A DNA stretch of 64,000 nucleotides from Salinactinospora qingdaonensis (GTDB taxonomy: Bacteria; Actinomycetota; Actinomycetes; Streptosporangiales; Streptosporangiaceae), in assembly GCF_039539445.1 (NCBI RefSeq), contig NZ_BAABDD010000001.1, positions 444,103-508,102 of the forward strand, given 5' to 3'. Position 1 is the first letter of the stretch, and each line of letters opens with the position of its first letter. The translations under genes were made by a program, and so were the position numbers. Shown piece by piece: positions 39,136 through 59,882 of this stretch. Below the pieces are notes generated by a model. The model had not been told where the DNA came from. It saw only the letters and a program-made list of their open reading frames with translations, and did not search any database.

Positions 39136-39229
39136 CACCATCCCCACCACACCCCGCTCGACACCCCCATACCCCCCACGAGCGGGGCGCGACTCCGTGG
39201 GGCGGCCTTGAGGCCGACGATGCCACGGC

Positions 39230-41532: not shown

Positions 41533-43812
41533 ATGCCCCATCTGGCCATCGACGCGACGTGTCTTCCCCAGTACGACAAGCTCGACCGGCCGACTCGGGA
41601 ACGGCTTCTCGCCGCGACGCGCAAGTTCCGTGAGCTCTCCCTCGACGCTCTGTACGCTCACCCGGACCTGCGCATCCGCTCCCTTCCGGCCGGTCAGGAC
41701 CCCCGTATCCGCACCTTCCGGATCAGCGACTCCTGGACGGGGGTGATGCTCGCCCCCGAATCGGGGGAGACGTTCCTGCTCGTACACTTGCTGCCGCGCG
41801 AGTCGGCCGATGCGTGGGCCAAGGACCAGCGCCACGACGTCAACACCGTCATGGGCACGCTGGAGCGGCGCGACGCCGCAGCGTTAGAGCGCGAGGAGGC
41901 CCGGCGCGGCGCCATGGACCGGGCAGCCGGCGAGAGCGCCGCATCGGGCTGGGACGCCCCCACCCCGATGCGGCGCGCCGCCGGCGGTTCGACCGTGCTC
42001 AGCGCCCCCACCACCACGGCCACAGCCCCTTCCCCGCCCGCCCCCGCCTCGACCACCAGCGGGGCCGCGGCGAGCGGGGCCGAACTCTTCGCCCACGTCA
42101 GCGACCACGAGCTGCGCCGGCTCGGCGTCGACGCCGAGATCGTCAACTTCTGTCGGTCGTTGAGCACTGCCGAGGAGCTGCGGATGTGGGCGGCGGCGCT
42201 GCCGCAGGACCAGTACGAGGTGCTGTCGCACCTGGCCGATGGGCTGTCGGTGGAGCGGGTGCTGCGCGAGGTGGTCGAGCCGCGCCGGCCGGCTGTGGGA
42301 GCGGTGGCCACCGACGACTACGACACCGCGATCCGCCACACGCGGGAACGGGTCATCGTGGTCAACGACGACCGCGAGATCGAAGACGTGCTGGCCGGGG
42401 AGTTCAACGCCTGGCGGATCTACCTCCACCCCAAGCAGCGCGACCTCGCCTACCGGCCGCGCTTTCGCGGCCCGGCGAAGGTCTCGGGCGGTCCGGGCAC
42501 GGGCAAGACAGTGGTGGCGCTGCACCGGGTCAAGTACCTGGCCGAACATCTGCCGCTGGGTGGGCGGGTGTTGCTCACCAGCTTCACCAACGCCCTCGTC
42601 GAGACGCTCAAGCGCAACCTGGGGCTGCTGGTGACGGCCGAACTCCTTGACGACGTCGACGTGATCACGGCCGACAAGTTCGCCATGGACGTGGTCAAGG
42701 AGGTTTCGCCTGAGATCAGCTTCTGGCCCGACCACGACGTGCGCGGGCTGTTCGCCAACGTGGCCGGCAAGCACGACCTGCCGTGGTCGGGGGAGTTCCT
42801 GTTCCAGGAGTACAAGCACGTGGTCATGGCGCACGGCTTGACGACGCTGGAGGGCTACCTCGACCCCGACGCGCGGCGTGGCCGTTCGACTCCGTTGGAC
42901 GTGCAGCAGCGACGCGACGTGTGGCACGCCATCGCCGAGGCTCGCGCGCGCATGCGCCGCACCACGCGGCTACCGGCCTTGGAGCTGCACGCCAAGGCCA
43001 CCCAACTGCTGGAGGAGCGGGCCGAGAAGCCCTACACCAACGTGGTCATCGACGAGGCCCAAGACCTGCACCCGGCCCAGTGGCGCACGTTGCGCGCGGC
43101 GGTGCCGCCCGGCCCCAACGATTTGTTCATCGCCGGTGACAACCGGCAGCGCATCTACGACACCACCGTGTCGTTCAAGCAACTGGGGATCACGATCGTG
43201 GGGCGCTCCTACCCGCTGCGGGTCAACTACCGCACCACGACCGAGATCCTGGCGTGGGCCAACGAGATCATGCGCGGCCAGTCGGTGGCCGAGCTGGGCG
43301 AGTCCGCGCCAGAGCCCGCTGGCAGCACGCGCTCGGTGCTGCAAGGCGAGGCGCCCGAACTCTACGGTGCGCCCGACGAGGCCACGGAGTTGGCGGCGCT
43401 GGCCGAGCGGGTCCGGCGGTGGCTCGCCGACGGGGTGGCCGCCGGTGATATCTGCGTGGCCACGCGCACCCGCGGTATCCGCAACACGGTCACCAAGGAG
43501 CTGCGTAACCGCGGGCTGCCCGCCGTGGTCTTTAACGCTCAGGAGGACACGGTTACCGAGCAGTCGGAATCGGTGCGGGTGACCACGATGCACAGTGTCA
43601 AGGGGCTGGAGTTCCGGGCGATCGCGGTCGTCGGCGTCACAGCCGAGGCGCTGCCGCAGATGGAGCGGGTCACCGACGCCGAGATCGACCAGAACCAGCA
43701 CGAGGCCGACCTCGCCGCCCAGCGTTCTTTGCTGTACGTGGCCTGCACCCGCGCCCGCGAATGGCTCTACGTCTCTTGGCACGGCCGCCCCAGCTCGTTC
43801 CTGCCGGTGTGA
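41533..43812 (+). CDS. UvrD/REP superfamily-1 helicase with about 280-aa N-terminal extension; HelD-like (possible RNA-polymerase-associated helicase)
   Basis: RBS GAAGGAGG. Motif I GGPGTGKT, motif II VVIDEAQDL (DEAQD form typical of HelD), motif VI TMHSVKGLEFRAIAVV. A Pro/Ala-rich linker sits in the N-terminal extension. Confidence 0.6.
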   Translation: MPHLAIDATCLPQYDKLDRPTRERLLAATRKFRELSLDALYAHPDLRIRSLPAGQDPRIRTFRISDSWTGVMLAPESGETFLLVHLLPRESADAWAKDQRHDVNTVMGTLERRDAAALEREEARRGAMDRAAGESAASGWDAPTPMRRAAGGSTVLSAPTTTATAPSPPAPASTTSGAAASGAELFAHVSDHELRRLGVDAEIVNFCRSLSTAEELRMWAAALPQDQYEVLSHLADGLSVERVLREVVEPRRPAVGAVATDDYDTAIRHTRERVIVVNDDREIEDVLAGEFNAWRIYLHPKQRDLAYRPRFRGPAKVSGGPGTGKTVVALHRVKYLAEHLPLGGRVLLTSFTNALVETLKRNLGLLVTAELLDDVDVITADKFAMDVVKEVSPEISFWPDHDVRGLFANVAGKHDLPWSGEFLFQEYKHVVMAHGLTTLEGYLDPDARRGRSTPLDVQQRRDVWHAIAEARARMRRTTRLPALELHAKATQLLEERAEKPYTNVVIDEAQDLHPAQWRTLRAAVPPGPNDLFIAGDNRQRIYDTTVSFKQLGITIVGRSYPLRVNYRTTTEILAWANEIMRGQSVAELGESAPEPAGSTRSVLQGEAPELYGAPDEATELAALAERVRRWLADGVAAGDICVATRTRGIRNTVTKELRNRGLPAVVFNAQEDTVTEQSESVRVTTMHSVKGLEFRAIAVVGVTAEALPQMERVTDAEIDQNQHEADLAAQRSLLYVACTRAREWLYVSWHGRPSSFLPV

Positions 43813-46186: not shown

Positions 46187-46801
46187 GTGAGCATGCGAAA
46201 GCGCTCCTGGTCCGCGCTGGCACTTTCGAGCGCCACCGCCGGACTGGTCGTGCTCGCCGCCGCTCCCGCCGCCGCGGCCGAGCCCACGAACCGCCAACTC
46301 CTGGAACAGTGCAACAACGGCACCGACACCTGCGTCTTCCACCCCGACGGCCCACCGCAGTACTACACCGGCCCGGCGCGCCAAGTCGGCGACTCCGTCT
46401 ACAACTGCACCAACGGTGTACAGCGCTTCAACGTCTCGTGGTCGGACACCACCTCGCAGAGCAACAGCGTCGGGATCGCCATGACCACCGAGGCCGGATT
46501 CGGCGAGGCCTTCGCCGTCAGCTACGAACAGTCCTACGAGCACACCTGGAAGACCTCCCACACCGAGAGCCAGACCACCTACGTCGACACCGGCCCTTAC
46601 CAGGTCGGCTGGGTCGAACGGCAGCCGCGGATGGAACGGGTCAGCGGCACCTACGAGATGCACTTCGGCGACCCCTACTACGGCCACTACATCTGGTACG
46701 TCCCCTTCGAGGCCCGGGGACCGGCCTCTGACGGCGCCTCGGAAGCGATCGTGCAGCACAACCGGGATATGACCGATGCGGAAAAGGCGGCGTGCCCATG
46801 A
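46187..46801 (+). CDS. secreted protein of unknown function, paralog A of a tandem pair
   Basis: Signal peptide, 4 Cys. Conserved blocks AAEPTNRQLLEQC.NGTDTCVFHPDGPPQYY and RVSGTYEMHFGDPYYGHYIWYVPFEA are shared with paralog B. Confidence 0.6.
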   Translation: MSMRKRSWSALALSSATAGLVVLAAAPAAAAEPTNRQLLEQCNNGTDTCVFHPDGPPQYYTGPARQVGDSVYNCTNGVQRFNVSWSDTTSQSNSVGIAMTTEAGFGEAFAVSYEQSYEHTWKTSHTESQTTYVDTGPYQVGWVERQPRMERVSGTYEMHFGDPYYGHYIWYVPFEARGPASDGASEAIVQHNRDMTDAEKAACP

Positions 46802-47421
46802 CGACCCGCAACCGAACCGGCACGCGCGGAAGCGCCAGCGCGGGGGCGGTGGCCGCCACGGCCCTGCTGGCCGCGATACTGCCGGCGGCCCCGGCCGCCG
46901 CGGCCGAGCCCACGAACCGCCAACTGCTCGAACAGTGCGGTAACGGCACCGACACCTGCGTCTTCCACCCCGACGGCCCACCGCAGTACTACCAGAACAC
47001 CAGCGAGGTCGTGGGCAGCCCGGCCTACAACTGCACCGACCGTTCCCAACTGATGTCGGTGACGTGGTCGGACACGGTCTCGGAGTCCAACAGCGTGGGA
47101 ATCTCGATGAGCGCGACCTTCGGGACGGTCTTCAAGACCACGTTCGAGGCCAGTTACGGCTACGAGTGGAGCGAGTCCCACACCGAGAGCCAGACCACCT
47201 ACGTGGATGTCCCCGTTGGCCATGTGGGACGGGTCTACTACGGCGCCATGATGCAACGGGTCAGCGGCACCTACGAGATGCACTTCGGCGACCCCTACTA
47301 CGGCCACTACATCTGGTACGTCCCCTTCGAGGCCACCGGCCCCGCCGAGGACCAGGGCGGCGCGTGGACCCAGTCCACCTCCGTCATGACGGCCCAGGAA
47401 CGCGCCACCTACTGCGACTGA
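46792..47421 (+). CDS. secreted protein of unknown function, paralog B (overlaps the A stop by ATGA)
   Basis: Same architecture. An identical about 80-nt stretch is present in both genes. Confidence 0.6.
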   Translation: MPMTTRNRTGTRGSASAGAVAATALLAAILPAAPAAAAEPTNRQLLEQCGNGTDTCVFHPDGPPQYYQNTSEVVGSPAYNCTDRSQLMSVTWSDTVSESNSVGISMSATFGTVFKTTFEASYGYEWSESHTESQTTYVDVPVGHVGRVYYGAMMQRVSGTYEMHFGDPYYGHYIWYVPFEATGPAEDQGGAWTQSTSVMTAQERATYCD

Positions 47422-47501: not shown

Positions 47502-48287
47502 TCACCCGGAGGGAGCGGGCAGGGGGAGCAGGTAGGGGCGCTCGCCGTTCATCAGCGCGCGGAAGTGGCCGACGACGCGAGCCACAGCGGCCGGGTCGCG
47601 CAGCAGCACCCCCAGTTCGATGTTGTCGGTGAGCGCGCGTGCGGTGAGGTTGGCGCTGCCGATCAGCGCGGCGGAACGGTCGGCGGCGATGACCTTGGCG
47701 TGCAGCGCCGCTCTACCGTCGCCGCCCCTGCGGTGGGCGGGCCAGTGCCAAAAGTGAGCTCGGCGCCGCAGCCGCGCGAACGGGGCGTGGGCGTTGGTGC
47801 TTTCCTCCAGCACCAGGTCGATGCGTACGCCGCGGTCGGCGGCGGCGACCAGTTCGGTTACGAGCGGAGAGGTGTGGGAAGCGGCGAAGCTGACGATCAG
47901 CACCTCGCGCTGGGCCTGGCGGATGAGTTGGCTCAACACCGCCGTGGTCAGCCGCGCCGGCTGGCCGGCCGAACGGGGGCCGCTGACCACTACGGCGGGC
48001 CGGTGACGGCGGGTTCGCTCGGCCATCGTCGCTGCGGCCCGCAGCGCCGCGGCCGCCGCTGCGGCCGGGGTCGCCGGCTCTCCCCGCCATGCGCGCACGA
48101 TCCGGGCGGCGTCGGCGGCCATACCGTAGCCGGGACGCGCGGCTAGCAGCGCCGCCTCCAGGCCGGGCTCGTCGGGGCCGGCAGCGGCGGCGAGAACGTC
48201 GGCCCAGGCGCTCGCGTGCTCGCCGGGGAGCCGGTCGGCGAGGGCGCAGAGCTCTTCGATGAGCCCCGTGTTGGGGGGATCGCTCAT
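47502..48287 (-). CDS. drmC: phospholipase D-family (HKD) protein, DISARM DrmC-like
   Basis: Starts MSDPPNTGLIEEL. HKD motif HAKVIAADRSAALIGSANLT. ATGA overlap with the drmB stop. The 679-aa ORF in the track is an artefact that runs on in-frame over drmB. Confidence 0.75.
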   Translation of the reverse strand: MSDPPNTGLIEELCALADRLPGEHASAWADVLAAAAGPDEPGLEAALLAARPGYGMAADAARIVRAWRGEPATPAAAAAAALRAAATMAERTRRHRPAVVVSGPRSAGQPARLTTAVLSQLIRQAQREVLIVSFAASHTSPLVTELVAAADRGVRIDLVLEESTNAHAPFARLRRRAHFWHWPAHRRGGDGRAALHAKVIAADRSAALIGSANLTARALTDNIELGVLLRDPAAVARVVGHFRALMNGERPYLLPLPAPSG

Positions 48288-50146
48288 TGGACGAAGCCGG
48301 TGCCGGCGGGGCCACTGGCGAGCGTGTCGACGACGAGAGCGCGGTCCAAGTAGTGGTTGTTGCGCTCGCACGAGGTCTCGGCGGCGAACATGCAGGCGTG
48401 ACAGGCCGCACCGTAGAGTCGGGCGTGGTCGTGGGGCTCCTGTTCGGCGCATAGCGGGTCGGAGCTGCACAGCCGGGCCGCCTCCAGCGCCTGCTCGATA
48501 AGCGTGTCGAGCCGGTCGGGGTCTTGGCCCAGCGACACCAGACCGCCGAGTGTGCCCTCGCTGTCGGAGGCGGCTGTGTAGAGCAGTACACCCGCCATCG
48601 GGTCGTCGCCGTCGCGAGCGTAGACCCGTTCGGCGATCCCGGAGGCGCTGTAGCCCGACTCCAGCGCGAACTCGCGGATGAGCGCGTGGGCGAAGGAGTG
48701 CAGCATCAGGTAACGCACGCCGGGCCACCCGCCCGAGTCGAGTCCTCGGGCCAGGCGCCAACGCTGGTGTCCGTCGCGCAGCCGTTTCTCCCGGCGCACC
48801 ACTTCGGGCCGGCGCTCCCACGCGGCGACCTGCTCCTCGCGGAACCGCAGGAATATCCCCTCGCCGCGCTGTTCGGCGCAGGGCACCCACGTGGGCGATC
48901 CGCTCGCCAACGGTGCGATCCGTTTGTCTTCGGTGCTGCGCACCTCGAACTCGGGAGCGCCGATGCGCGTGAAGCCGTAGAGGGCGCTGACCTCGCGCAG
49001 CCGGGGTACGAGCGTTACCCGCCGCAGGAACGCGCCGGCCCGGCGGGGGGTGGCGACCCGGGTGGTCGTGAAATCGGGGAGATGCACCTCCTCGTCGCGG
49101 GTGAAGGCCTGCCACTCCGGGCCGGCGAGGTCGTCCTCGCCGAGTTCGGGCTCCGAGCCGGCGGTGTCGGAGCGCTGGGCGCGGCGCTGGATCGCGCGCC
49201 AGACCTTGGCCAACCCGTGATGCTCCAACTGGGGCCAGCACGGCAGGACCTCCAGCACGGGCCGGGCCTGCTCCTGCGACAGGGAGACCAGCGGTTCCAG
49301 CGTCGACCAGTTCTCGGCGAGGGTGTTGTCGAGCGGATCGTCCTCCCGCGGGAGGCTGAACACGCGAATCTGGGTGGGGAACCAACTGTTGGTGGCGCCC
49401 AGCGAGAGCGCCCGAGTGGACTGGTCGCAGCCTTCGAAGAGGCTCAGGTGGGGGTGGCGGCCCCGGCAGGCCGGCAGGTTCTTGGCGGCGTTGTCGGGGC
49501 CGATGGCCTCGGACATGGCGCGTCCTTGGCCGCAGGCGCACACCACCCGCACGTTGGCCGCCTCACCTGAGGTGCCGGTCTCGACGAGTTTGAGGGTGTG
49601 GGGCTGCTCGCCGCCGGGCTCGGGGACGCTGCCGCGGTGGACGAAGAACATCCACGGGAAGTCGTCGAGGTGACCTTTCTCGCAGGCCAGCACGAACCGG
49701 GCCGGCACCACGGTGGGGCGGCTGCGCCCCTGGCCGTAACAGTTGTGGACGATGCGGGTCTTGTCGGGACGGTAGGGGGAAAAGATCGGTTGGAACGAGC
49801 CGGCGTCGACGGGGCCGAGGTAGTTGCAGTCGCCTTTGGTGCAGCGCAGCCACCGCGGAAACAGCGCGACCGGCACGCCGATGCGGCTCCACTCGTCGTG
49901 GACGTTGCGGTGGTTGGGTGGGGTGTAGGGCGGGGTGCGCAAGCTTTCCACCTGCGTTCCGAGTTCGCGGCGTACCGCAGCCAGCAGCCGGGGCTCGGGG
50001 ATGACGGTGGTGCGGGCCGGGTCCCAGTGGTCGAGCCCGAGGATGGTCACCGACAGGTTGGGCATGTCGGCGATGGCTCCCACACCGAAGGTGTGCAGCA
50101 GTTGGCTGGTGCGCAGTTCTCCCACGCGCTGGGGCGGGGTGGTCAT
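48284..50146 (-). CDS. drmB: DUF1998-domain protein, DISARM DrmB-like
   Basis: Likely start MTTPPQRVGELRTSQLL (ATGA overlap with drmA stop). C-terminal Cys cluster CAEQ...CHACMF...SCERNNHYLDR typical of DUF1998. Confidence 0.75.
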   Translation of the reverse strand: MTTPPQRVGELRTSQLLHTFGVGAIADMPNLSVTILGLDHWDPARTTVIPEPRLLAAVRRELGTQVESLRTPPYTPPNHRNVHDEWSRIGVPVALFPRWLRCTKGDCNYLGPVDAGSFQPIFSPYRPDKTRIVHNCYGQGRSRPTVVPARFVLACEKGHLDDFPWMFFVHRGSVPEPGGEQPHTLKLVETGTSGEAANVRVVCACGQGRAMSEAIGPDNAAKNLPACRGRHPHLSLFEGCDQSTRALSLGATNSWFPTQIRVFSLPREDDPLDNTLAENWSTLEPLVSLSQEQARPVLEVLPCWPQLEHHGLAKVWRAIQRRAQRSDTAGSEPELGEDDLAGPEWQAFTRDEEVHLPDFTTTRVATPRRAGAFLRRVTLVPRLREVSALYGFTRIGAPEFEVRSTEDKRIAPLASGSPTWVPCAEQRGEGIFLRFREEQVAAWERRPEVVRREKRLRDGHQRWRLARGLDSGGWPGVRYLMLHSFAHALIREFALESGYSASGIAERVYARDGDDPMAGVLLYTAASDSEGTLGGLVSLGQDPDRLDTLIEQALEAARLCSSDPLCAEQEPHDHARLYGAACHACMFAAETSCERNNHYLDRALVVDTLASGPAGTGFVQ

Positions 50147-53100
50147 TGCTCGCCTCGGTCGTCGGTCTCGGAGGAGGTGTAGGGGATGAAGGGGGGTTCG
50201 GCGCCGTCGCCGAGATCCTGGCCCGGATCGAGGACGAGCCGGATGCCGGGTTCGACCTCGCGCAGCGAGGTCGGGCAGGTGGTGGGCTTCCACGGGGCGC
50301 CGTCGGGGCTGTCCAGCAGCGCCTGGGCGTCGGTGTTCTTCGGCGGCTCTTTGTAGACCAGCCGCACGCCTTGCTTTCTTCGGCGGGCTTCCCAGACGTC
50401 GAGCCGGTTGTCGAGTTCGTCGTGGATATCGCGGGCGGCCTGGCTGCTGCCGGTGACGGTGCGGGCGCGCCGGTCGATCTCGTTGACGATGTGGTCGGCG
50501 ACCTTGCCGGAGCGGTCGAACATGCGGGCGGCGTCGTTGGGGTTGAGGGCGGTCTCCAGGTTGCGCACGAGGGAGACCAGCACTCCCATCAGGCCGCGGT
50601 CGACGGCCCGTGCGGCGAACGGCGTCACCGACAGCGCTTCGACGTGACGGTACATGGTGGCGTGGAAGGCGTGGAAACGCTCGTAGTGGGAGAGGTCGCG
50701 CGGGCGCGACCAGTTGTAGACGGTGAACACCAGCCCGGGGGCGCGGCGCCCCACCCGGCTGGTGGCCTGGATGTACTCGGCGGTGGACTTGGGCTGGTTG
50801 TTGACCGTCATGACGCCGAGCCGGGCGACGTCGACCCCGACGGCGATCATGTTGGTGGCCAACAGCACGTCGATCGGGCGCTTGGTGCGGTCGGCGGCCG
50901 AGACGGCGAGCCGTTCCAGCACGGCGGGGATGTCGTCGGAGCCCAGCCGCGAAGTCAGCTCCGCAGCCCAGGGGGTGCGGCGCCGGGCCAGGCCGCGCTG
51001 GTCGGCGCGCCCCAGCCGGGTGGCCACGTCGTCGTCGACTAGGCGGCGCATCCCGCCCAGGTCACGCAGGCTGTTGAAGTAGCCCACCAGGGTCATGTAG
51101 GGGTCGGTGACCTCGTTGCCGCCGTAGGTGTCGTGCAGGCGCTGGGCGGCGGCCAGGATCGCGACGAACACCCGGATCTGCACCGACTTGATGCGCACGC
51201 CGTGGGCGCATAGGCCGATGTAGCGCCGGCCGTCGCGGCGTTCGGGGGCGCGCTGGCGGGAGAAGAAGTTGTCGGCGGCGTCCAGGCCCTGCGGCGGGAA
51301 CACGCGGGTGTCGCGGCCGGCGAACAGCGCGCCGATCTGGCGGGTGGCGCGACGCACGGTGGCGGTGGAGGCGATGACTTTGGGCCGCACCTGCACCGTC
51401 GCGCCGCTGCCGGGAGCGGTGTAGTCCCAGGAGGCGAGGCGGTCCACCGCGGTCTCGTACAGCCCCACCAGCGACCCCAGGGGGCCGGAGATGAGGTGCA
51501 GCTCGTCCTGAACGATCAGGTCGGGCGGACGCAGCGCGGCGGTGGGTTTGACGTGGGCGGCCGGCAGCGACCGAGGACGGGTCTCGGCCTGGTGCTGCGA
51601 CACCCCGCCGCAGACCTGCTGGTGCAGCTCGCCGGCGAGGTAGCCGTGCCGGGTGCAGACCCGACCCACCCGACCGAATAGCGCCTGGGTCTCGCCCTGC
51701 CAGGCGAGCTGGGCGAACTTGTCGACCGTGGCGATGATCAACGAGGGCACCAGCCGGTAGATCTCGTCGTCGACGACGAGGACCGGCAGCCCCTCGCCGC
51801 CGCTGGGGTAGGCGCTGAAGGGGCACTCCAGGTCGGGGCAGCGAATGCGGGTGCGCTGCTCGGCGGGGTCGACGTCGATGTCGGAGCCGGAATCGACCGT
51901 CGCGCCGCACCAGGGGCAGGTGACCAACTGGTGCGGCGAGCCGTCGGCGCGATTGCCGGCCCCGCCCCGCTGGCTGCGCCGCGCCCGCACCCACTCCTCG
52001 GCGGCCTTGGTGCGGTTGGGGGTGACCCTGCCGCCCACCCACAGGCCGATCCGAAACGGCACGCGCCCCCACGTGTCCTCGTCGTCGCGGCGCAGCACCT
52101 CGCAGGCGCAGATGAGGGCGGCGGCGCGCTGGAACTGCTGGATGGTCAGCAGCCGCAGCGTGTAGCGCATCAGCACCGCCACACCGGAGCGCCCGCGCAC
52201 GTCGGCGCCGTCGAGGTCGCCCTGCAACCGCCGGATCGCCAGCGTGTAGGCGGTCAGGCCCAGGTAAGCCTCGGTCTTGCCGCCGCCGGTGGGAAACCAC
52301 AGCAGGTCGGCGACCCGGCTTTCGGGAGCGGCGCGTTCCTCGTGGGCGGGGTCGGTGAGCGATGGCAGGTTGAGGAGGAGAAACGCGAGCTGGAAGGGGC
52401 GCCAACTGCGGTTTCGCGGCGTGTCGAGCTCGGCGGCGACCTCGTCGATGGCGCGGGTGGTGTCACCGCCGCGCGCGGCGGCTGCCAGGGAGTGCACGCG
52501 CTGACGGCGCATGGCCTCGTTGGCGAACTGGAAGGCGCGCAGCGCGGCGGGGTCGGTGGCGAGCAGCTCGACGGCGGCCTCGATGCGGTGTGCGGCGCGC
52601 TCGGCGTCGGCGAGGTTCTTCTCGGCCTCGGCGCGGTACTCGGCGAGGTGGGCGGCCGGGTCGGTGATGCGGTCGCGCTGCCGGGCGATCCAGGCGCGGT
52701 AGCCGGTGACGAGCGGGTCCAGGCCGGCGCGCACGTCACCGGCCTGCATCCGGGCGAGTTCGCTCATGTCGAGGGTGAGGCGGGCCAGCTCGGGCAGGTC
52801 GGGGTCCTCCTCGGCGCTGGGCACGTCGGTGTGGGGCAGCTCGTAGCGGGGGACGCTCGCGGTGCGCACCGCGACGGCCCGCATGGGGTCGTCGGGCGCG
52901 GGGTCGACCGCCACGGCGGTGCTGTGGCCCACGGCGAACTCGCCGGCGAAGCGGTAGGTCATGGCCAGCCGGCGCTGTTCTTCGCGGTCGAGCTGGTCGC
53001 CGCCGGAGGAGTGGTCGGGGCGCGGGACGAACACCGGCGCGGCGCCGTCGGCGGCGGTGGCCCTCAGTTCGGCTTGGAACAGCCACTTCTTCCACTCGCG

Positions 53101-53688
53101 GTCCTCTCCGGTCTGCCCGTTGACCAGGAACAGGGTGACCAGGGTGTGGCCGGCGAAGGAGCGGACCCGACCGCGCAGGCACACGCCGGGCTGTTCGGGG
53201 TCGAGTTCCACGGCGGGGATCTCGCCCTCGGCCAGCGAGATGAGGGTCTGGCCACTTCGGGGGTCGCGGCGGCGCACCTGCTTGCCGGAGCCGTCGTCGG
53301 CGGTGGCGTCGACGTAGCGTGCCCAGGTGGCCCGCACGAGCAGCCGCTCGGTGTCGGGGGCCACGGAGGCGGTGAACCCGTGGGCCGAGCAGGACATGCT
53401 GGGGGTGGCGGGGGCTTCGGGCTCGGGATCGTCGTCGTCGGGGTCCAGTGCGACCTCGTCACCGCTGTTGAGACCGACTTCGGCGAGGTTGTCCTGCTCC
53501 TCGGGGTGGAACACCGCCCCGTTGGGGGCGAGCCGCCCTAGGATGTAGCGGTCGGTGGGGCGCTCGCCGGAGAACTCCTCGTGCTCGTCGCCGCCGATGG
53601 GACCGTACAGGTCGGCGACGACCAGCTCCTCCAACTCGGCTCGGATCTCGCGCGCCGAGGGCACTTTCAACACCCGCTGCTCAACCAT
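50143..53688 (-). CDS. drmA: SF2 DExH helicase, DISARM DrmA-like
   Basis: Start MVEQRVLKV at 53688 (the ORF track extends 117 aa further upstream in-frame). Motif I FPTGGGKTEAYL, motif II IVQDELHLISGP, C-terminal domain LLATNMIAVGVDVARL...YIQATSRVGRR. Confidence 0.75.
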   Translation of the reverse strand: MVEQRVLKVPSAREIRAELEELVVADLYGPIGGDEHEEFSGERPTDRYILGRLAPNGAVFHPEEQDNLAEVGLNSGDEVALDPDDDDPEPEAPATPSMSCSAHGFTASVAPDTERLLVRATWARYVDATADDGSGKQVRRRDPRSGQTLISLAEGEIPAVELDPEQPGVCLRGRVRSFAGHTLVTLFLVNGQTGEDREWKKWLFQAELRATAADGAAPVFVPRPDHSSGGDQLDREEQRRLAMTYRFAGEFAVGHSTAVAVDPAPDDPMRAVAVRTASVPRYELPHTDVPSAEEDPDLPELARLTLDMSELARMQAGDVRAGLDPLVTGYRAWIARQRDRITDPAAHLAEYRAEAEKNLADAERAAHRIEAAVELLATDPAALRAFQFANEAMRRQRVHSLAAAARGGDTTRAIDEVAAELDTPRNRSWRPFQLAFLLLNLPSLTDPAHEERAAPESRVADLLWFPTGGGKTEAYLGLTAYTLAIRRLQGDLDGADVRGRSGVAVLMRYTLRLLTIQQFQRAAALICACEVLRRDDEDTWGRVPFRIGLWVGGRVTPNRTKAAEEWVRARRSQRGGAGNRADGSPHQLVTCPWCGATVDSGSDIDVDPAEQRTRIRCPDLECPFSAYPSGGEGLPVLVVDDEIYRLVPSLIIATVDKFAQLAWQGETQALFGRVGRVCTRHGYLAGELHQQVCGGVSQHQAETRPRSLPAAHVKPTAALRPPDLIVQDELHLISGPLGSLVGLYETAVDRLASWDYTAPGSGATVQVRPKVIASTATVRRATRQIGALFAGRDTRVFPPQGLDAADNFFSRQRAPERRDGRRYIGLCAHGVRIKSVQIRVFVAILAAAQRLHDTYGGNEVTDPYMTLVGYFNSLRDLGGMRRLVDDDVATRLGRADQRGLARRRTPWAAELTSRLGSDDIPAVLERLAVSAADRTKRPIDVLLATNMIAVGVDVARLGVMTVNNQPKSTAEYIQATSRVGRRAPGLVFTVYNWSRPRDLSHYERFHAFHATMYRHVEALSVTPFAARAVDRGLMGVLVSLVRNLETALNPNDAARMFDRSGKVADHIVNEIDRRARTVTGSSQAARDIHDELDNRLDVWEARRRKQGVRLVYKEPPKNTDAQALLDSPDGAPWKPTTCPTSLREVEPGIRLVLDPGQDLGDGAEPPFIPYTSSETDDRGEQ

Positions 53689-53780: not shown

Positions 53781-54419
53781 TCAGGTGTGGGCGAGCAGTC
53801 GCCCGACGAGGATGTGGACATCGGTCCAGGGGTTTTTGGCAGTGGGGTGGGCCTGCTCTGGGAAGTTCTCGGCGAGCTTGGCCGCCCGGTCGATGGCGTC
53901 CCGACGCCGTTGACCGGTGAAGTGGGCGGGGTTGATGTCCTTGTCGGCGGTGTAGCAGCAGTTGAGCCTGCGCATCCGGTCTTGGGCTTGGCCGGTGGTC
54001 AGATAGCCCGTGTGCGAACGCTGGTGCAACAGCAGCCACAGTTCGAAGCAGGGGGTGGTCAGGGCACAGCGGATGTTGTTCCTGCGGGCGAGGGCGAGCG
54101 CTTCATCGAGGGAGGAGTGCGGCTGGGGAGCCTCGACGTCGAGGACACACCAGACCTCATCGTAGGGTTCTCCCTGGTCGGCTCGCCGCTTACCAGCGCT
54201 GTCCTGGCGGATTTTCGCCTTTTTAACCATTTTGAGAGGTTCGCCGGCTTCTCCGTCGATATCGACCTTAAGGCCGGAAAAGCGCAGTTCCCTCTTAATC
54301 GCCCTGAAGTAACTGGGAGCGGCATTTTTGTCCTCACAACAGATGAGGAAACGGCGTTTCTCCTGCTTTGTTCCGGTCTTCGGTTGCAGCGAGGACCGCT
54401 TTTTCAGTTTTGACCCCAC
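53781..54419 (-). CDS. RloB-like (Toprim-like) protein, AbiLii-like
   Basis: 212 aa. RloB-family conserved features (LICCEDKN.. ETNYF; ..CFELWLLLH). Sits 10 bp downstream of the AAA ATPase. Confidence 0.55.
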   Translation of the reverse strand: MGSKLKKRSSLQPKTGTKQEKRRFLICCEDKNAAPSYFRAIKRELRFSGLKVDIDGEAGEPLKMVKKAKIRQDSAGKRRADQGEPYDEVWCVLDVEAPQPHSSLDEALALARRNNIRCALTTPCFELWLLLHQRSHTGYLTTGQAQDRMRRLNCCYTADKDINPAHFTGQRRRDAIDRAAKLAENFPEQAHPTAKNPWTDVHILVGRLLAHT

Positions 54420-54428
54420 ATGGCCATG

Positions 54429-55739
54429 CTAGCGAGCATGCTCCACGATTTTGCTCGTATCGGGCAGAGACTCTTCCTCGAAGACCGGGACACCGCCAAA
54501 GCGTCCGAGGAGGTAACGGCGCAGCACATCGTCTCGGGAATCGCGGACCCCGTACTCGCGTAGGGCGGTGAGTTCGGTGACTCCCTCTTGGCTCTTCTCC
54601 GTCAGCCAGACTTGGTCGCGCGTCAGCCGACCGAAGGAACGCCGGTCCAGCAGCGTGACGTCGTGGGTGTTGAACACGAGTTGTGCGCCGTTGGGGTTGG
54701 TCGTGGGCTCCTGGAACAGCCGCACTAGCTGGCCGGCGAGGTTGGGGTGCAGCCGCGCGTCGAGTTCGTCGACGATGAGGAGCGTGCCGTGGGTGAGCGT
54801 GAAGGCGACGGCACCGATCAACTCCAGCCAGGTACGCGTCCCGCTCGACTCCACGTCGTAGGGCAGCTCCACATCACCGTCCGTCGTCGTGTGCGCGACC
54901 CGGATTTCGGGACCGGCTGTGAGTGAGTGCGGGTCCACCAGCTCGGCGTCCTCGGGATGGAGGAGTTTGATCGCTTCGACGAAGTGCGTGGCGGCTTCGG
55001 CCGGCATCTCCCGCTGCTTGGAGCGAAGGTCGCTGATGCCCAGATCGGCGAAGCGGATGAGGTCGCGCAACTGCGGCATCTCGCCGCTCTCCAGCAGGTC
55101 GAGCGTGAACTGCAACCGCGGGTAGGCGTCGTGTTCGTGGGCGATGCGCAACTGCTGGAACCAGTCGTAGACACGGGTCAGCAGCGGGTGGTTGTTGGCC
55201 GCGCCGGCGGAGACGAGCAGGCTGTTGGGCCGCACGGCCTCCCTAGCGAGCCGGCTGAGCTGGCCGTAGCCCTTACGCAGGTGGGGGCCGAAGTCCACCC
55301 CGTCCTCTCGGGTGCGCTCGAACAGCCGGCGCGGTCGCCCTTTGGGCCAGGACAGCAGCCACTCCTCGACGATCTCGCGGTCGTCGAGGGCGAAGCCGTA
55401 CTCGTAGCGCACGCCGTCGATGACCATGTCGAAGGCGAACTCGCTGGACTGCTCGGCCATAGCGGGATCGAGCCGGAACGGTTCCCGCCGGGTGGGCGCG
55501 TTGGGCTTCCACCCCTGGTGGGAGGAGAGCACCACTTCGCGGGCGTAGAACATCGAGTGGATCAGCTTGGACTTGCCGGAGGCGTTGGCCCCGAGGACAC
55601 CGACGACCGGCAGGGCCTGGAAGTGTGTGCCCGGGACATCGCGCACCGCCAGGTCCTCATGCCTGTCTGCGGCGATCAGACTGAGTTCCTGCTCGTCACG
55701 GATCGAGGCGAAATTGGCGACCCGGAACCGAAGCAACAC
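54429..55739 (-). CDS. AAA_21/ABC-type ATPase, AbiLi-like
   Basis: MLLRFRVANFASIRDEQEL (SMC-like N-terminus), Walker A GANASGKSKL, Walker B/D-loop LLIVDELDARLHP. Confidence 0.65.
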   Translation of the reverse strand: MLLRFRVANFASIRDEQELSLIAADRHEDLAVRDVPGTHFQALPVVGVLGANASGKSKLIHSMFYAREVVLSSHQGWKPNAPTRREPFRLDPAMAEQSSEFAFDMVIDGVRYEYGFALDDREIVEEWLLSWPKGRPRRLFERTREDGVDFGPHLRKGYGQLSRLAREAVRPNSLLVSAGAANNHPLLTRVYDWFQQLRIAHEHDAYPRLQFTLDLLESGEMPQLRDLIRFADLGISDLRSKQREMPAEAATHFVEAIKLLHPEDAELVDPHSLTAGPEIRVAHTTTDGDVELPYDVESSGTRTWLELIGAVAFTLTHGTLLIVDELDARLHPNLAGQLVRLFQEPTTNPNGAQLVFNTHDVTLLDRRSFGRLTRDQVWLTEKSQEGVTELTALREYGVRDSRDDVLRRYLLGRFGGVPVFEEESLPDTSKIVEHAR

Positions 55740-55962
55740 GACCGGACTCCTGAAGGTTTACTCTTAACGACCTACCGGAGCGTATACCCGAGGAACGAAC
55801 TCTTATTGGCGTTTTCGGGAAACTTCTCGGCAGAATCTTCCCAGAACCGCCTCTTGATTGTCTCGACGAAGCGTTCGAAGTGGTCATAGCAGTACGACGG
55901 CAGAGGACGACTGGCCGCCCCGCCCACGCGTTAGGCTCTCGCTTCGCCCCGTCGACCTCACC

Positions 55963-56724
55963 TCAGGACTGGTGCAGCACACACGTCTCAAGGTCGAATC
56001 GGGTGTGGGTCACCCGGTCGAGCAGCGGCTTGGCGTGCTCGTACTTGGGTTGCAGCTCCCGGGCGAGTACGACGGTGGCCACCGTGTGCGCCCCGGCCCG
56101 CTTGAGGCGGTGGGCCGCCGACTGGGCGCGTGCGCCGGTGACCCAAGTGTCGTCGATCAACAGCACGTTCGCCCCCTCGACACTCGTGGACTCGCCCGAG
56201 AGGTCGAACCAGTCGGCGTGGAACGAACGGCTGGCGGTGTCGATGCCGGTGTTGACGACGAGCTCGACGCGGTTGAGCGAGATCTTGGGCGCGAGCAGGA
56301 CTTGCAGGGGATGGACCGCCTCCGTGTGCTTCGTGCTGGGCACGAAGCACACGTGGGTGAAGCGCTCGATCCCCACGGACTGCTTGACGCAGGTGATGTG
56401 GGTCTTGCAGAAGTACCAGAAGAGGGCGTGCAGCCGGCGCCGTGCCGCCTCGTTGCCTCGCAAGGGACGCTTGTACATCACGAGATCCTGGGCGTGCTGC
56501 CCGTTGTCGTTGACCCGGTAGGAGATGGGGACGACCGCGTCGGCGAGCACTCCCCCGGAGCTGTTCCGGGCTTCCACGCAGCGCCAGCAGCGGGAGAGCT
56601 CGACCGGCACGGCGCCGTAGCAGACCTCGCAGGCTCCCGCGGCGGCGGGAAGCGCAGCGTGCAGGTAGTTGACCTGCACCGCCACCTGGTGACGGATGAT
56701 CTCCCAGGAACTCTCACCAGGCAA
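55963..56724 (-). CDS. ComF-like phosphoribosyltransferase with N-terminal Zn-ribbon; ShosT-like candidate
   Basis: CEVCYG...CWRC zinc ribbon. PRTase type I motif VLLIDDTWVTGARAQSAAHRLKRAGA. Confidence 0.55.
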   Translation of the reverse strand: MPGESSWEIIRHQVAVQVNYLHAALPAAAGACEVCYGAVPVELSRCWRCVEARNSSGGVLADAVVPISYRVNDNGQHAQDLVMYKRPLRGNEAARRRLHALFWYFCKTHITCVKQSVGIERFTHVCFVPSTKHTEAVHPLQVLLAPKISLNRVELVVNTGIDTASRSFHADWFDLSGESTSVEGANVLLIDDTWVTGARAQSAAHRLKRAGAHTVATVVLARELQPKYEHAKPLLDRVTHTRFDLETCVLHQS

Positions 56725-57667
56725 TGTCGACGGCCTCGTGCAGATCCTCGGGGGTCAGCTCGGCTTCCCGGATCAGGGCGTCGACCGTGGCGGCGAGCTG
56801 ATCGAGGCTGTCGACCACGTGCACGCCGGGGAATTCGGCGTAACGACGCGCCCACTCGTTGACCAGCAGCTCGCGCGGAAAGATCACGGGACGTCCGTGT
56901 TGCAAGGCGAAGCGGGCCTGGATACGGGCGCCGCTGTGCTCACCGGCCTCCACGACGACGGTGGCGGTGGCATAACCGCTCATCACAGCGTTGCGCATGG
57001 GGAAGCTGCGCTTGGACGGCGGGGCGTCGGGCAGGAACTGGCTCAGCAGCATGCCGCGCCGCGCGATCGTCTCGTGCAACTCCCGGTTCTGCTTGGGGTA
57101 ACAGCGGTTGATCCCGGTGCCCAGGACGGCGACGGTGCGCCCGCCGTGGGCGAGGGCGGCGGTGTGGGCGGCGGTGTCGATGCCGAGGGCCAGACCGCTG
57201 ACCACGGTGATGCCGCGCGAGGCGAGCATGCCGGCGATGTTCTCGGCGATCTCCAGCCCGCGCTGGGACGCTTTGCGCGATCCCACGACAGCGATTGCGT
57301 GGGCATCAGAGCGCAGTTCACCCCAGGTGAAGACTATGGGGGGCATCTCGTGGATCTCGCGCAGCCGCGCCGGGTACTCCTCGTCGAGGAAGCTGAGGAC
57401 CCGCACGCCACGCTTCTCGCAGTCGGCCAGCAGATCGTGGGCGGCCGTGACCTCGGTCGGCGGCTCAGCAGCCGAAAACAACGCCTCTTGGGGGGCTGGT
57501 TGGCGCTGCAACACGGTTACGGCGCTACCGGCCTCCATCACGGTCTCGGTAATGGTCCGCCATCGCGAGCCTTCGCGCAGCAGCAGTGCCACCATCGCGG
57601 TCCGCTCGTCGATCTGCTGCATGCGTCCGATCGTAGAAGCTCGCCGCCCCCTGCCCAACTCCGACAT
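56714..57667 (-). CDS. DprA/Smf (SLOG)-family protein; ShosA-like candidate
   Basis: Rossmann-like DprA core AIAVVGSRKASQRGLEIAENIAGMLASRGITVVSGLALGIDTAAH. 11-nt overlap with the PRTase gene. No competence or housekeeping neighbours. Confidence 0.55.
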   Translation of the reverse strand: MSELGRGRRASTIGRMQQIDERTAMVALLLREGSRWRTITETVMEAGSAVTVLQRQPAPQEALFSAAEPPTEVTAAHDLLADCEKRGVRVLSFLDEEYPARLREIHEMPPIVFTWGELRSDAHAIAVVGSRKASQRGLEIAENIAGMLASRGITVVSGLALGIDTAAHTAALAHGGRTVAVLGTGINRCYPKQNRELHETIARRGMLLSQFLPDAPPSKRSFPMRNAVMSGYATATVVVEAGEHSGARIQARFALQHGRPVIFPRELLVNEWARRYAEFPGVHVVDSLDQLAATVDALIREAELTPEDLHEAVDIAW

Positions 57668-57884
57668 CGCGACCGCCCTTACAACGGTGTGACCTTACAC
57701 CGGTTTCCGGTGATGTACTTACCGATATCCACAATAGAACACACGTTCTAACGATGATCTTGTGGTCTACCGTACAGAGGGCTGCGGGAGCGAGAGGAGA
57801 AGGAGAGACGGCTCGGTGCTCGCGAGAAGCCGGGGCGACGACAGAAGCAGTCCTAGCGGGGCCAGGTTCTGTTCTTTGGAGGGA

Positions 57885-58010
57885 CGGCCGGGGCCGGCGG
57901 TGGGCGCACGCGGGCGAGCGCGCCCGCTATCAGCCCACGCGGGCTGCCGAGATCGCGCAGCGATCGAGGCACGAGCGGACGACGAACACCCCACAGCCCC
58001 ACTCCAGCCG
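57885..58010 (-). repeat. REP-like element copy C (inverted), left boundary of the 58.0-63.9 kb block
   Basis: The reverse complement of 57921-58005 aligns to 63911-64000 at about 90% identity. Confidence 0.6.
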
Positions 58011-59512: not shown

Positions 59513-59517
59513 GGGAC

Positions 59518-59778: not shown

Positions 59779-59882
59779 GCGGAGCGTCGACGCTCAGGGG
59801 CGGCCCATAGCGAACGTACTCAGCGGGCGCCGGGGAGAGCGGAAGACTCCCTGCCCTTGCCGACAACGCTTCGGCGAGTGCC

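What the first reader, a model, noticed from the sequence alone, without database searches (positions are those of the whole stretch)
47502..53688. DISARM-like drmA-drmB-drmC core with ATGA-coupled genes but no methyltransferase or DrmD/DrmE in view
A helicase (DExH), a DUF1998 protein and a PLD protein sit in the canonical DISARM order. Both junctions overlap by ATGA. Known DISARM classes add an SNF2 protein and a modification methyltransferase (class 1 drmD/drmMI; class 2 drmE/drmMII). Upstream here is instead an ATPase/RloB pair, and downstream are unrelated secreted-protein genes. The system is either a stripped core, uses a distant methyltransferase, or is a variant in which another module substitutes.
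Basis: partly seen in the sequence, partly recalled or inferred. Interest (0 to 1): 0.65.

Follow-up and report, generated by a model that had tools for sequence, protein, structure and literature searches.

The report
DISARM core that lost its partners
These three genes are the helicase, partner and nuclease core of a known anti-phage system (class 1 DISARM) in a defence island of Salinactinospora qingdaonensis; the two partner genes that close relatives keep upstream are missing from the window and probably from the genome, which makes this an eroded known system rather than a new one.

Summary
On the minus strand, drmA (50143-53688), drmB (48284-50146) and drmC (47502-48287) are intact and joined by two ATGA overlaps. 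They match PADLOC DrmA/B/C models strongly. DrmA and DrmB align over nearly their full length with the solved Serratia class 1 DrmAB complex. No DNA methyltransferase or SNF2 gene lies anywhere in the 64 kb.

The locus is not a new variant. Close relatives (62-72% DrmA identity) carry drmD-drmMI-drmABC. Between drmMI and drmA they have a variable slot holding other cassettes: a WhiJ/BldB/AbaA-like regulator trio, HEC-01 or Shosta. The window shows the same layout: trio, HEC-01, a RelA_SpoT gene, Shosta, AbiL, then drmABC. The ATPase/RloB pair is therefore an independent AbiL cassette, not a substitute module.

In four Nocardiopsis genomes drmMI ends 52-61 bp beyond the DUF397 gene. Here a genome-specific repeat occupies that place. 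Protein-database searches find no full-length S. qingdaonensis DrmD or DrmMI, although 9 of 10 window proteins tested are on record. Loss or decay of the partners is likely but unproven, because I could not read the DNA beyond base 64000.

Published Serratia data make a methylase-less DrmABC viable. Interest is low.

The parts
50143..53688 (-). drmA: SF2 DExH helicase of class 1 DISARM (1181 aa)
   Evidence: PADLOC DrmA E=0. PDB 7S9V_A 5.4e-265 over residues 8-1155. 100% identical to NCBI 'DISARM system helicase DrmA' of Salinactinospora qingdaonensis. Motifs GGGKT, DELH, TAT and QATSRVGR are present, as are the equivalents of Serratia R1294/V1296 (R1143/V1145).
48284..50146 (-). drmB: DUF1998/MZB partner of DrmA (620 aa); its ATG overlaps the drmA stop (ATGA)
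   Evidence: PADLOC DrmB 5.7e-69 and Pfam MZB 4e-10. PDB 7S9V_B 5e-161 over residues 7-610. Junction sequence. Cys cluster C560/C566/C582/C585.
47502..48287 (-). drmC: PLD-family nuclease (261 aa); its ATG overlaps the drmB stop (ATGA)
   Evidence: PADLOC DrmC 7.2e-86 and Pfam PLDc_2 1.3e-18. HxKx4D at residue 196 and GSAN at 210. NCBI names it 'DISARM system phospholipase D-like protein DrmC'.
41533..43812 (+). RelE/HigB-like N-terminal domain fused to a UvrD/GajB-like helicase (759 aa). The architecture resembles ArmD, and the gene recurs next to this DISARM lineage, so it may be an accessory.
   Evidence: Pfam UvrD-helicase/UvrD_C and PADLOC GajB/NERD+UvrD. The AF2 model of residues 1-136 (pLDDT 66) matches RelE/HigB/YoeB structures, with most top-20 probabilities 0.9-1.0 and E about 6e-3. 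A 77% identical ortholog lies downstream of drmC in M. sediminis. Homologs lie divergently beside drmD in N. mwathae, N. potens and metagenome L074.
53781..55739 (-). AbiL cassette: AbiLii/RloB (53781..54419) and AbiLi/AAA_21 ATPase (54429..55739). It is independent cargo, 93 bp upstream of drmA.
   Evidence: PADLOC AbiLii 3.8e-20 and AbiLi 1.9e-83; Pfam RloB 1.8e-32 and AAA_21 3.8e-33. G+C is 0.61-0.66. It is not found upstream of drmA in any related locus, and it sits next to a regulator trio without DISARM in N. halotolerans L007.
55963..57667 (-). Shosta-like cassette: phosphoribosyltransferase (55963..56724) and DprA-like ShosA (56714..57667)
   Evidence: PADLOC ShosA 4.5e-68, ShosT 2.4e-5 and PsyrT 3e-9; Pfam DNA_processg_A 7.5e-64. 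A ShosA-ShosT pair is embedded between drmMI and drmA in metagenome locus L074.
58703..59512 (+). RelA_SpoT-domain protein (PADLOC candidate PDC-S33), embedded cargo
   Evidence: Pfam RelA_SpoT 2.1e-13. PADLOC PDC-S33 1.6e-19. G+C 0.58.
59883..61798 (-). HEC-01 cassette: TOPRIM-like DUF4276 (HEC-01B, 59883..60590) and ABC-type ATPase (HEC-01A, 60557..61798)
   Evidence: PADLOC HEC-01B 1.1e-78 and HEC-01A 7.3e-193. Orthologs (62% and 74% identity) sit directly upstream of drmA in N. mwathae.
61934..63879 (.). WhiJ/BldB/AbaA-like regulator trio: HATPase_c_2 (61934..62383, -), HTH_31+DUF5753 (62765..63634, +) and DUF397 (63631..63879, +). In relatives it lies between drmMI and drmA.
   Evidence: Pfam results. 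The same trio in the same orientation lies between drmMI and drmA in N. potens, N. sp. EMB25, N. mwathae and N. metallicus, and upstream of drmD in S. algeriensis.
63915..64000 (.). Genome-specific repeat occupying the position where relatives have the 3' end of drmMI. An inverted copy lies at 57907..57992, and further copies at 38799..38850 and 39094..39145.
   Evidence: The inverted repeat is 86 nt and 95% complementary. The 35-nt core occurs four times in the window against 0 expected, and in none of 153 related loci. None of the three minus-strand frames of 63880..64000 holds the conserved DrmMI C-terminus ...DGALFPPDGALF*.

Best explanation
The locus is the drmA-drmB-drmC core of a class 1 (Serratia-type) DISARM anti-phage system in a defence island of Salinactinospora qingdaonensis. 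In this actinobacterial lineage the full system is drmD (SNF2 helicase), drmMI (PglX/MmeI-like N6-adenine methyltransferase), a variable cargo slot, and then drmABC. In four of the six related genomes examined the slot holds a WhiJ/BldB/AbaA-like regulator trio; other occupants are HEC-01, Shosta and a helicase-PLD gene. In the window the slot has grown to at least 10.3 kb: trio, HEC-01, a RelA_SpoT gene, Shosta and AbiL. The drmD-drmMI half is not where synteny puts it. It has most likely been deleted or degraded, leaving an orphan core. A RelE-UvrD helicase that travels with this DISARM lineage also remains.

Mechanism, inferred from the Serratia system rather than shown here: DrmA and DrmB form an autoinhibited helicase complex. 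An acidic loop in DrmA, aligned with the Serratia trigger loop, would occlude the DNA site. Single-stranded DNA with a 5' overhang on incoming phage or plasmid DNA would displace the loop and switch on ATP-driven translocation. DrmC is a PLD nuclease that is dispensable in tested systems. Without DrmMI there is no methyl mark to damp the complex on self DNA, and without DrmD the range of protection is probably narrower. The core may still give partial defence.

My estimates: about 0.5 that the core is still active in defence, and about 0.35 that it is an inert but recent remnant.
For: Shown here:
- Identity of DrmA/B/C and near-full-length homology to the solved Serratia class 1 DrmAB.
- All catalytic and DNA-contact motifs are intact.
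- Complete drmD-drmMI-drmABC operons occur in close relatives: S. algeriensis (compact), M. sediminis, N. mwathae, N. sp. EMB25, N. potens and metagenome L074.
- The gap between drmMI and drmA ranges from about 50 bp to 6.7 kb and holds the trio, HEC-01, Shosta or a helicase-PLD gene.
- The window has the same trio and HEC-01 orthologs in the same order and orientation as N. mwathae.
- The cargo has lower G+C (0.58-0.68) than drmABC (0.70-0.75).
- No DrmD or DrmMI remnant is in the window.
- The drmMI stop lies 52-61 bp from the DUF397 stop in four Nocardiopsis genomes. The corresponding 121 bp of the window hold a repeat and no DrmMI C-terminus.
- No S. qingdaonensis protein is among the best 120 hits to DrmMI (120th hit 54% identity) or DrmD (120th hit 64%). 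Yet 9 of 10 window proteins tested are in that database under this species, and its DrmA was the top hit.
- The DrmA/B/C distances from S. qingdaonensis to relatives are no larger than the distances among relatives with complete systems.

From the literature:
- In Serratia class 1 DISARM, loss of the methylases causes no autoimmunity. Protection rests mainly on drmA and drmB, and DrmABC without methylases still protects against M13 (bioRxiv 10.1101/2021.12.28.474362).
- The trigger-loop and 5'-overhang mechanism comes from PMC9142583.
- Genes embedded in DISARM operons are described in bioRxiv 10.1101/2024.01.29.577857.
Against: I could not read the genome beyond base 64000. The assembly is absent from the searchable genome collection and from the gene-position index.

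The case for loss is therefore indirect:
- A fragmented or pseudogenised drmMI or drmD, or a non-orthologous methyltransferase further upstream or elsewhere in the genome, would escape the top-120 protein lists.
- By synteny the missing genes belong exactly on the unseen side.

No expression or activity data exist for this locus. In Serratia, deleting drmD and drmMI nearly abolished protection against one phage, so an orphan core may be weak. The normal evolutionary distances do not separate continued selection from recent loss.
Confidence: 0.72

Rival explanations
1. The system is a complete class 1 DISARM. Intact drmMI and drmD lie just beyond base 64000, past the repeat, and the window simply cuts the system inside an unusually long embedded-cargo slot.
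For: In every relative examined, drmMI (intact or IS-split) lies on that side of the trio. The window ends only 121 bp after DUF397. Embedded cargo is common in DISARM.
Against: Neither the DrmMI nor the DrmD search returns a full-length S. qingdaonensis protein, although the proteome is well represented in the database. The conserved drmMI 3' end is not at the syntenic position, where a genome-specific repeat sits instead.
Confidence: 0.13
2. This is a new DISARM variant in which the upstream ATPase/RloB pair, or another neighbouring module, functionally replaces DrmD and the methyltransferase and is co-transcribed with drmABC.
For: The pair is on the same strand, with only 93 bp between the RloB stop and the drmA start, and no convincing terminator lies between them.
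Against: The pair matches AbiLi and AbiLii, a separate two-gene defence system. Its G+C is lower than that of drmABC. No AbiL lies upstream of drmA in 10 related loci, and AbiL occurs next to a regulator trio without DISARM in N. halotolerans. drmABC here is orthologous to the core of complete class 1 operons.
Confidence: 0.04
3. drmABC works with a non-cognate DNA methyltransferase or helicase encoded elsewhere in the genome, such as a BREX PglX or an orphan methylase. The system would then be dispersed rather than stripped.
For: Nothing here speaks directly for it. Class 1 DrmAB senses methylation status rather than a sequence (PMC9142583), so any dense methylation could in principle damp it.
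Against: The 64 kb holds no DNA methyltransferase. In relatives the partners are always linked to drmABC. Serratia data show that no methylase is needed to avoid autoimmunity, so nothing requires a replacement.
Confidence: 0.1

Closest known systems
Class 1 DISARM of Serratia sp. SCBI (DrmD, DrmMI, DrmA, DrmB, DrmC, plus DrmMII; DrmAB structures 7S9V/7S9W)
   Same: DrmA and DrmB align nearly end to end (5.4e-265 and 5e-161). The helicase motifs, the R1294/V1296 equivalents and an acidic loop aligned with the trigger loop are present. The order is drmA-drmB-drmC, with a PLD DrmC.
   Different: The window holds no drmD, drmMI or drmMII, and none is detectable as a full-length protein of this genome. 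At least 10 kb of unrelated defence cassettes lie upstream instead.
Actinobacterial class 1 DISARM operons of close relatives (Streptomonospora algeriensis, Marinitenerispora sediminis, Nocardiopsis potens, N. mwathae, N. sp. EMB25)
   Same: DrmA is 65-72% identical, DrmB 63-68% and DrmC 43-55%. The same WhiJ/BldB/AbaA-like trio and, in N. mwathae, the same HEC-01 pair lie upstream of drmA. The same RelE-UvrD helicase is a neighbour.
   Different: All of these keep drmD and drmMI within 0.05-6.7 kb of drmA. N. metallicus is an intermediate case, with drmMI split by a DDE transposase but drmABC intact.
ARMADA type II (ArmA BrxHII-like helicase, ArmB PglX-like methylase, ArmC YprA-like helicase, ArmD RelE-GajB helicase; bioRxiv 10.1101/2025.09.15.676423)
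   Same: Both are built around a YprA-family helicase module. A helicase with a RelE-like N-terminus and a UvrD/GajB-like body sits nearby.
   Different: Here the YprA-like helicase is split into DrmA and DrmB and is followed by a PLD DrmC, which that paper gives as the hallmark of the DISARM branch. No BrxHII-like or PglX-like gene is present.
Defence genes embedded within DISARM/BREX/Hma systems ('guilt by embedding', bioRxiv 10.1101/2024.01.29.577857)
   Same: HEC-01, Shosta, AbiL and a PADLOC candidate sit in the slot that in relatives lies inside the DISARM operon.
   Different: In the window, and probably in the genome, one flank of the host system (drmD-drmMI) is missing. The cargo is therefore no longer demonstrably embedded.

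Membership tests
DISARM class 1 | DrmA: SF2 DExH helicase of the DISARM branch | tested here: met
   PADLOC DrmA E=0; 7S9V_A 5.4e-265; motifs intact.
DISARM class 1 | DrmB: separate DUF1998/MZB protein encoded directly after drmA | tested here: met
   PADLOC DrmB 5.7e-69 and Pfam MZB; 7S9V_B 5e-161; ATGA overlap with drmA.
DISARM class 1 | DrmC: PLD-family nuclease after drmB | tested here: met
   PADLOC DrmC 7.2e-86 and PLDc_2; HxKx4D and GSxN motifs.
DISARM class 1 | DrmD: SNF2-like helicase in the same locus. PADLOC requires all five genes (PMC9252829). | tested here: not met
   No SNF2 domain in any scanned ORF of the window. tblastn with two cognate DrmD proteins finds nothing. No S. qingdaonensis protein is among the best 120 DrmD homologs. 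DNA beyond base 64000 was not readable.
DISARM class 1 | DrmMI: N6-adenine (PglX/MmeI-like) methyltransferase in the same locus | tested here: not met
   No DNA methyltransferase domain in the window. tblastn is negative. The conserved 3' end is absent from the syntenic position. No S. qingdaonensis protein is among the best 120 DrmMI homologs.
DISARM class 1 | Orthology and synteny of the core with complete class 1 operons | tested here: met
   Relatives with 62-72% identical DrmA carry drmD-drmMI-(cargo)-drmABC, with the same trio and HEC-01 cargo.
DISARM class 1 | Anti-phage activity and host DNA methylation | not testable with these tools
   This needs plaque assays and a SMRT or nanopore methylome.
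DISARM class 2 | DrmE and a C5-cytosine methyltransferase DrmMII flanking drmABC | tested here: not met
   No DrmE or DrmMII hit among the 18 neighbouring proteins scanned with PADLOC, and no C5 methylase domain by Pfam. The closest solved and genomic relatives are class 1.
ARMADA (types I/II) | Single-gene ARMADA-clade YprA helicase with a BrxHII-like helicase and a PglX-like methylase | tested here: not met
   The helicase is split into DrmA and DrmB, with a PLD DrmC. No BrxHII-like or PglX-like gene is present. Only an ArmD-like RelE-UvrD helicase is nearby.
AbiL (the upstream ATPase/RloB pair) | AbiLi ATPase plus an AbiLii RloB-like protein as an adjacent pair | tested here: met
   PADLOC AbiLi 1.9e-83 and AbiLii 3.8e-20; Pfam AAA_21 and RloB.
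Shosta | ShosA (DprA-like) plus ShosT (phosphoribosyltransferase) pair | tested here: inconclusive
   ShosA is strong at 4.5e-68. The PRTase is weak: ShosT 2.4e-5, PsyrT 3e-9, and Pfam Pribosyltran below its cut-off.

The most novel reading that the evidence does not exclude
S. qingdaonensis would be a natural example of a DrmABC core, perhaps acting with the linked RelE-UvrD helicase, that selection has kept as a stand-alone defence after drmD and drmMI were lost. That core would need no methylase and no SNF2 partner. It would show that the class 1 core can work on DNA-end structure sensing alone. It would also suggest that the drmMI|drmA cargo slot, with its WhiJ/BldB/AbaA-like regulator trio, is a regulated hotspot for acquiring other defences.
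Probability: 0.25. Interest if true: 0.45.

Novelty: new member of a known kind. Interest (0 to 1): 0.2.

Why it matters
The practical lesson is for annotation. A DrmABC triplet without its methylase is not by itself evidence of a new DISARM class. In actinobacteria the class 1 operon is routinely split by embedded cassettes, so partners can lie many kilobases away, be cut by insertion sequences (N. metallicus) or be lost. If the orphan core proves active, it would be a natural counterpart to the Serratia deletion experiments, which showed methylase-independent activity without autoimmunity. Two side observations may deserve a systematic survey more than the locus itself does: the regulator trio found in or beside the class 1 DISARM operon in five related genomes, and the ArmD-like RelE-UvrD helicase that travels with this system.

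Tried and rejected
1. I looked up the window's DrmA, DrmB and the NCBI version of DrmA in the gene-position index to get the contig. None is on record.

2. I spent the single genome-collection scan on the WhiJ-like protein near the window end, hoping to fetch DNA beyond base 64000. The S. qingdaonensis assembly is not in that collection (best hit 66-67% identity). The scan still returned 65 useful paralogous or orthologous loci.

3. The metagenome scan with DrmA gave 80 loci, but only about seven (43-64% identity, six of them at 55% or more) belong to this class 1 lineage. The rest (29-39% identity) are another DrmA clade without detectable DrmD, DrmMI or DrmC by tblastn, and say nothing about this locus.

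4. I first read N. metallicus as lacking drmD. Comparison with N. sp. EMB25 shows that drmD would lie just outside the fetched range, so only the IS-split drmMI is established.

5. dN/dS between N. metallicus and EMB25 is 0.16-0.24 for drmABC and 0.10 for the split drmMI fragment. The disruption is therefore recent, and the numbers do not inform on long-term retention of an orphan core.

6. The promoter and terminator scan of 47-58.8 kb found nothing above the shuffled expectation.

7. Rfam found only two tRNAs, so the repeat is not a known RNA family. Its folding z-scores of -2.7 to -3.0 in one orientation are modest.

8. I rejected the two class I SAM methyltransferases at 19.4-22.6 kb as partners. 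They belong to small-molecule-type families and lie 25 kb away among metabolic genes.

Full report
**Observation.** The window is high-G+C actinobacterial DNA (0.67 overall). The DrmA search identifies it as Salinactinospora qingdaonensis, with a 100% match to that species' 'DISARM system helicase DrmA' on a 545,228-bp contig. Nine of ten other window proteins are on record under the same species and contig. Three minus-strand ORFs fill the reported span: 50143..53688 (1181 aa), 48284..50146 (620 aa) and 47502..48287 (261 aa). Both junctions read caATGAcc, so each start codon overlaps the previous stop. The ATG at 53688 is confirmed. NCBI's version is six residues shorter, which fits the TTG six codons downstream.

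**Identity.** PADLOC models give DrmA E=0, DrmB 5.7e-69 and DrmC 7.2e-86. Pfam gives Helicase_C, MZB (DUF1998) and PLDc_2. Against solved structures, DrmA aligns over residues 8-1155 with Serratia DrmA (7S9V_A, 5.4e-265), and DrmB over 7-610 with Serratia DrmB (5e-161). Helicase motifs I, II (DELH), III and VI are present. So are the equivalents of the DNA-contacting R1294 and V1296 of Serratia DrmA, an acidic loop aligned with the Serratia trigger loop (residues 176-232), the DrmB cysteine cluster and the DrmC HxKx4D/GSxN motifs. These are intact class 1-type DISARM core genes.

**What surrounds them.** Directly upstream, at higher coordinates on the same strand, lies an RloB protein with an AAA_21 ATPase. 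Both match the two components of AbiL. Next comes a DprA-like ShosA with a phosphoribosyltransferase (Shosta-like). After that come a RelA_SpoT-domain gene (PADLOC candidate PDC-S33), an ABC-ATPase/TOPRIM-like pair matching HEC-01A/B, and a HATPase_c_2 / HTH_31+DUF5753 / DUF397 trio. That trio is the WhiJ/BldB/AbaA-type cluster known from Streptomyces (PMC10294661). Downstream of drmC are two paralogous secreted proteins, a GH64 glucanase and a 759-aa UvrD/GajB-like helicase. The rest of the window is metabolic and regulatory. No ORF carries a DNA methyltransferase or SNF2 domain. tblastn with the cognate DrmD and DrmMI of two close relatives finds no remnant anywhere in the 64 kb.

**Relatives.**
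- The closest DrmA relative, Streptomonospora algeriensis (72% identity), has a compact drmD - drmMI - drmA - drmB - drmC operon, with the regulator trio just upstream of drmD.
- Nocardiopsis potens has drmD - drmMI - [DUF397, HTH_31, HATPase_c_2] - drmABC.
- N. sp. EMB25 has the same layout with extra small genes.
- N. mwathae adds an HEC-01 pair between the trio and drmA. That pair is 74% and 62% identical to the window's.
- Marinitenerispora sediminis has a helicase-PLD gene and two small genes in the slot.
- Soil metagenome locus L074 has a ShosA-ShosT pair there.
- N. metallicus has drmMI split by a DDE transposase while drmABC stays intact.

The gap between drmMI and drmA thus runs from about 50 bp to 6.7 kb. 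Many of the species and contigs in the top DrmA hits reappear in the top DrmMI and DrmD hits. This lineage is therefore class 1 DISARM with an internal cargo slot. Such embedding is already described for DISARM, BREX and Hma systems (bioRxiv 10.1101/2024.01.29.577857).

**Reading the window against that template.** In the drmA orientation the window shows trio - HEC-01 - PDC-S33 - Shosta - AbiL - drmABC. This is the N. mwathae layout with three more cassettes inserted. The cassettes have lower G+C (0.58-0.68) than drmABC (0.70-0.75). AbiL is not upstream of drmA in any of the 10 related loci, and in N. halotolerans it sits beside a trio without DISARM. The ATPase/RloB pair is therefore independent cargo, not a substitute for DrmD or the methylase.

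**Where are drmD and drmMI?** Synteny places drmMI immediately beyond the DUF397 gene, convergent with it. The two stop codons are 52-61 bp apart in four Nocardiopsis genomes, and every DrmMI ends in ...DGALFPPDGALF or a close variant. The window continues 121 bp past the DUF397 stop, yet none of its three minus-strand frames shows that ending. Positions 63915-64000 are instead a copy of a repeat that also lies, inverted, at 57907-57992 (95% complementary). Its 35-nt core recurs at 38814 and 39096 and is absent from all 153 related loci.

I could not read further. The assembly is missing from the genome collection and from the gene index. As a proxy I searched the protein database with N. mwathae DrmMI and with S. 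algeriensis DrmD. Orthologs of the expected 65-80% identity would rank near the top. No S. qingdaonensis protein appears among the best 120 of either list, whose weakest entries are 54% and 64% identical. Since the species' proteome is otherwise well covered, full-length cognate partners are most probably absent. Fragments, pseudogenes or a non-orthologous methylase would escape this test.

**State of the core.** The DrmA/B/C distances from S. qingdaonensis to its relatives (DrmA 65-72% identity) are no larger than the distances among relatives that keep the full system. There is thus no sign of decay. This fits either continued selection or recent loss. dN/dS between N. metallicus and EMB25 (0.16-0.24 for drmABC, 0.10 for the split drmMI) only shows that the N. 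metallicus disruption is recent.

**Mechanism.** The mechanism is inferred from the Serratia system, not shown here. DrmAB is an autoinhibited helicase complex. Its trigger loop is displaced by single-stranded DNA with a 5' overhang, ATPase activity is needed for defence, and methylated DNA lowers the ATPase rate (PMC9142583). In Serratia, removing the methylases causes no autoimmunity. Protection rests mainly on drmA and drmB, drmC is dispensable, and DrmABC alone still protects against M13. Removing drmD and drmMI, however, nearly abolishes protection against phage Nami (bioRxiv 10.1101/2021.12.28.474362). An orphan core is therefore viable and may give partial defence.

**Classification.** The locus meets the three core criteria of class 1 DISARM and its synteny criterion, but fails the DrmD and DrmMI criteria. 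Under PADLOC's five-gene rule (PMC9252829) it would not be reported as a complete system. It is not class 2: there is no DrmE or C5 methylase. It is not ARMADA: the helicase is split and a PLD DrmC follows, which is the hallmark of the DISARM branch.

**Side observations.** The 759-aa helicase at 41533..43812 has an N-terminal domain whose single-sequence model (pLDDT 66) matches RelE/HigB/YoeB toxins almost exclusively among its top hits. This is the architecture of ArmD in ARMADA type II. Its ortholog (77% identity) lies downstream of drmC in M. sediminis, and homologs sit divergently beside drmD in N. mwathae, N. potens and L074.

**Verdict.** This is an ordinary, already annotated defence system in an eroded or split state, not a new variant.

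Noticed in passing
window 41533..43812 (+): A 759-aa protein with a RelE/HigB-like N-terminal domain (low-confidence model, consistent fold hits) fused to a UvrD/GajB-like helicase, the architecture of ArmD in ARMADA type II. Homologs accompany class 1 DISARM in M. sediminis (77% identity, downstream of drmC), N. mwathae, N. potens and metagenome L074 (beside drmD). It may be an unrecognised accessory of actinobacterial class 1 DISARM.
   Followed up: partly
window 61934..63879; L153 8047-9874; L152 6879-8690; L067 14169-16141; L069 7454-9314; L068 320-2396: A WhiJ/BldB/AbaA-like trio (HTH_31+DUF5753, DUF397, HATPase_c_2) sits between drmMI and drmA in four Nocardiopsis genomes and upstream of drmD in S. 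algeriensis. Paralogous trios lie next to AbiL (L007), Shosta (L017) and a distant drmA-drmB pair in Streptomyces (L045, L046, L048). This suggests a regulator cassette associated with defence systems. My one literature search on this found no link to phage defence.
   Followed up: partly
window 38799-38850, 39094-39145, 57907-57992, 63915-64000: A genome-specific repeat with a 35-nt invariant core (GCTGCCGAGATCGNGNAGCGATCGAGGCACGAGCG) occurs four times against 0 expected, and in none of 153 related loci. One inverted pair flanks 243 bp. The other flanks the 5.9-kb PDC-S33/HEC-01/trio segment and occupies the place where relatives have the drmMI 3' end. It contains short GC-rich hairpins and has no Rfam match. 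It could be a MITE-like or REP-like element or a recombination scar.
   Followed up: partly
L069 2327-7398 (Nocardiopsis metallicus): drmMI is split into a 1121-aa fragment and a 230-aa TRD fragment by a DDE_Tnp_4 transposase gene, while drmABC remains intact. dN/dS of the fragment against the EMB25 ortholog is 0.10, so the disruption is recent.
   Followed up: yes
window 53781..61798; L074 8263-9920: Four separate defence cassettes (AbiL, Shosta-like, PDC-S33 RelA_SpoT, HEC-01) are stacked upstream of drmA. An independent metagenomic class 1 DISARM locus has a ShosA-ShosT pair in the same slot.
   Followed up: partly
window 23581-23654 and 34746-34821 (-): Two tRNA-Lys(CTT) genes (94% identical over 83 nt) flank an 11-kb segment. 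It encodes a 1658-aa DUF3686/AAA ATPase ('DNA repair ATPase'), two SPFH/Band 7 proteins and a Ser/Thr kinase. It may be an integrated element or a duplication.
   Followed up: no
window 46187..46801 and 46792..47421 (+): Tandem paralogous genes for about 205-aa secreted proteins with no Pfam or PADLOC match (77-94% identical DNA blocks at 620-626 bp spacing). They lie between drmC and a GH64 glucanase, interrupting the drmC-to-UvrD synteny seen in M. sediminis.
   Followed up: no
window 14108-14431 (+): A 12-nt tandem repeat (about 20 or more units) encodes a Pro/Ser/Asp/Glu-rich PT-repeat stretch in a 356-aa protein, next to a sigma-70-family gene.
   Followed up: no
L075-L151 (metagenome loci): Most metagenomic DrmA relatives at 29-39% identity have a drmB homolog but no DrmC, DrmD or DrmMI detectable by tblastn with the actinobacterial queries. 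They may be class 2 or uncharacterised DISARM-like clades. I did not analyse them further.
   Followed up: no
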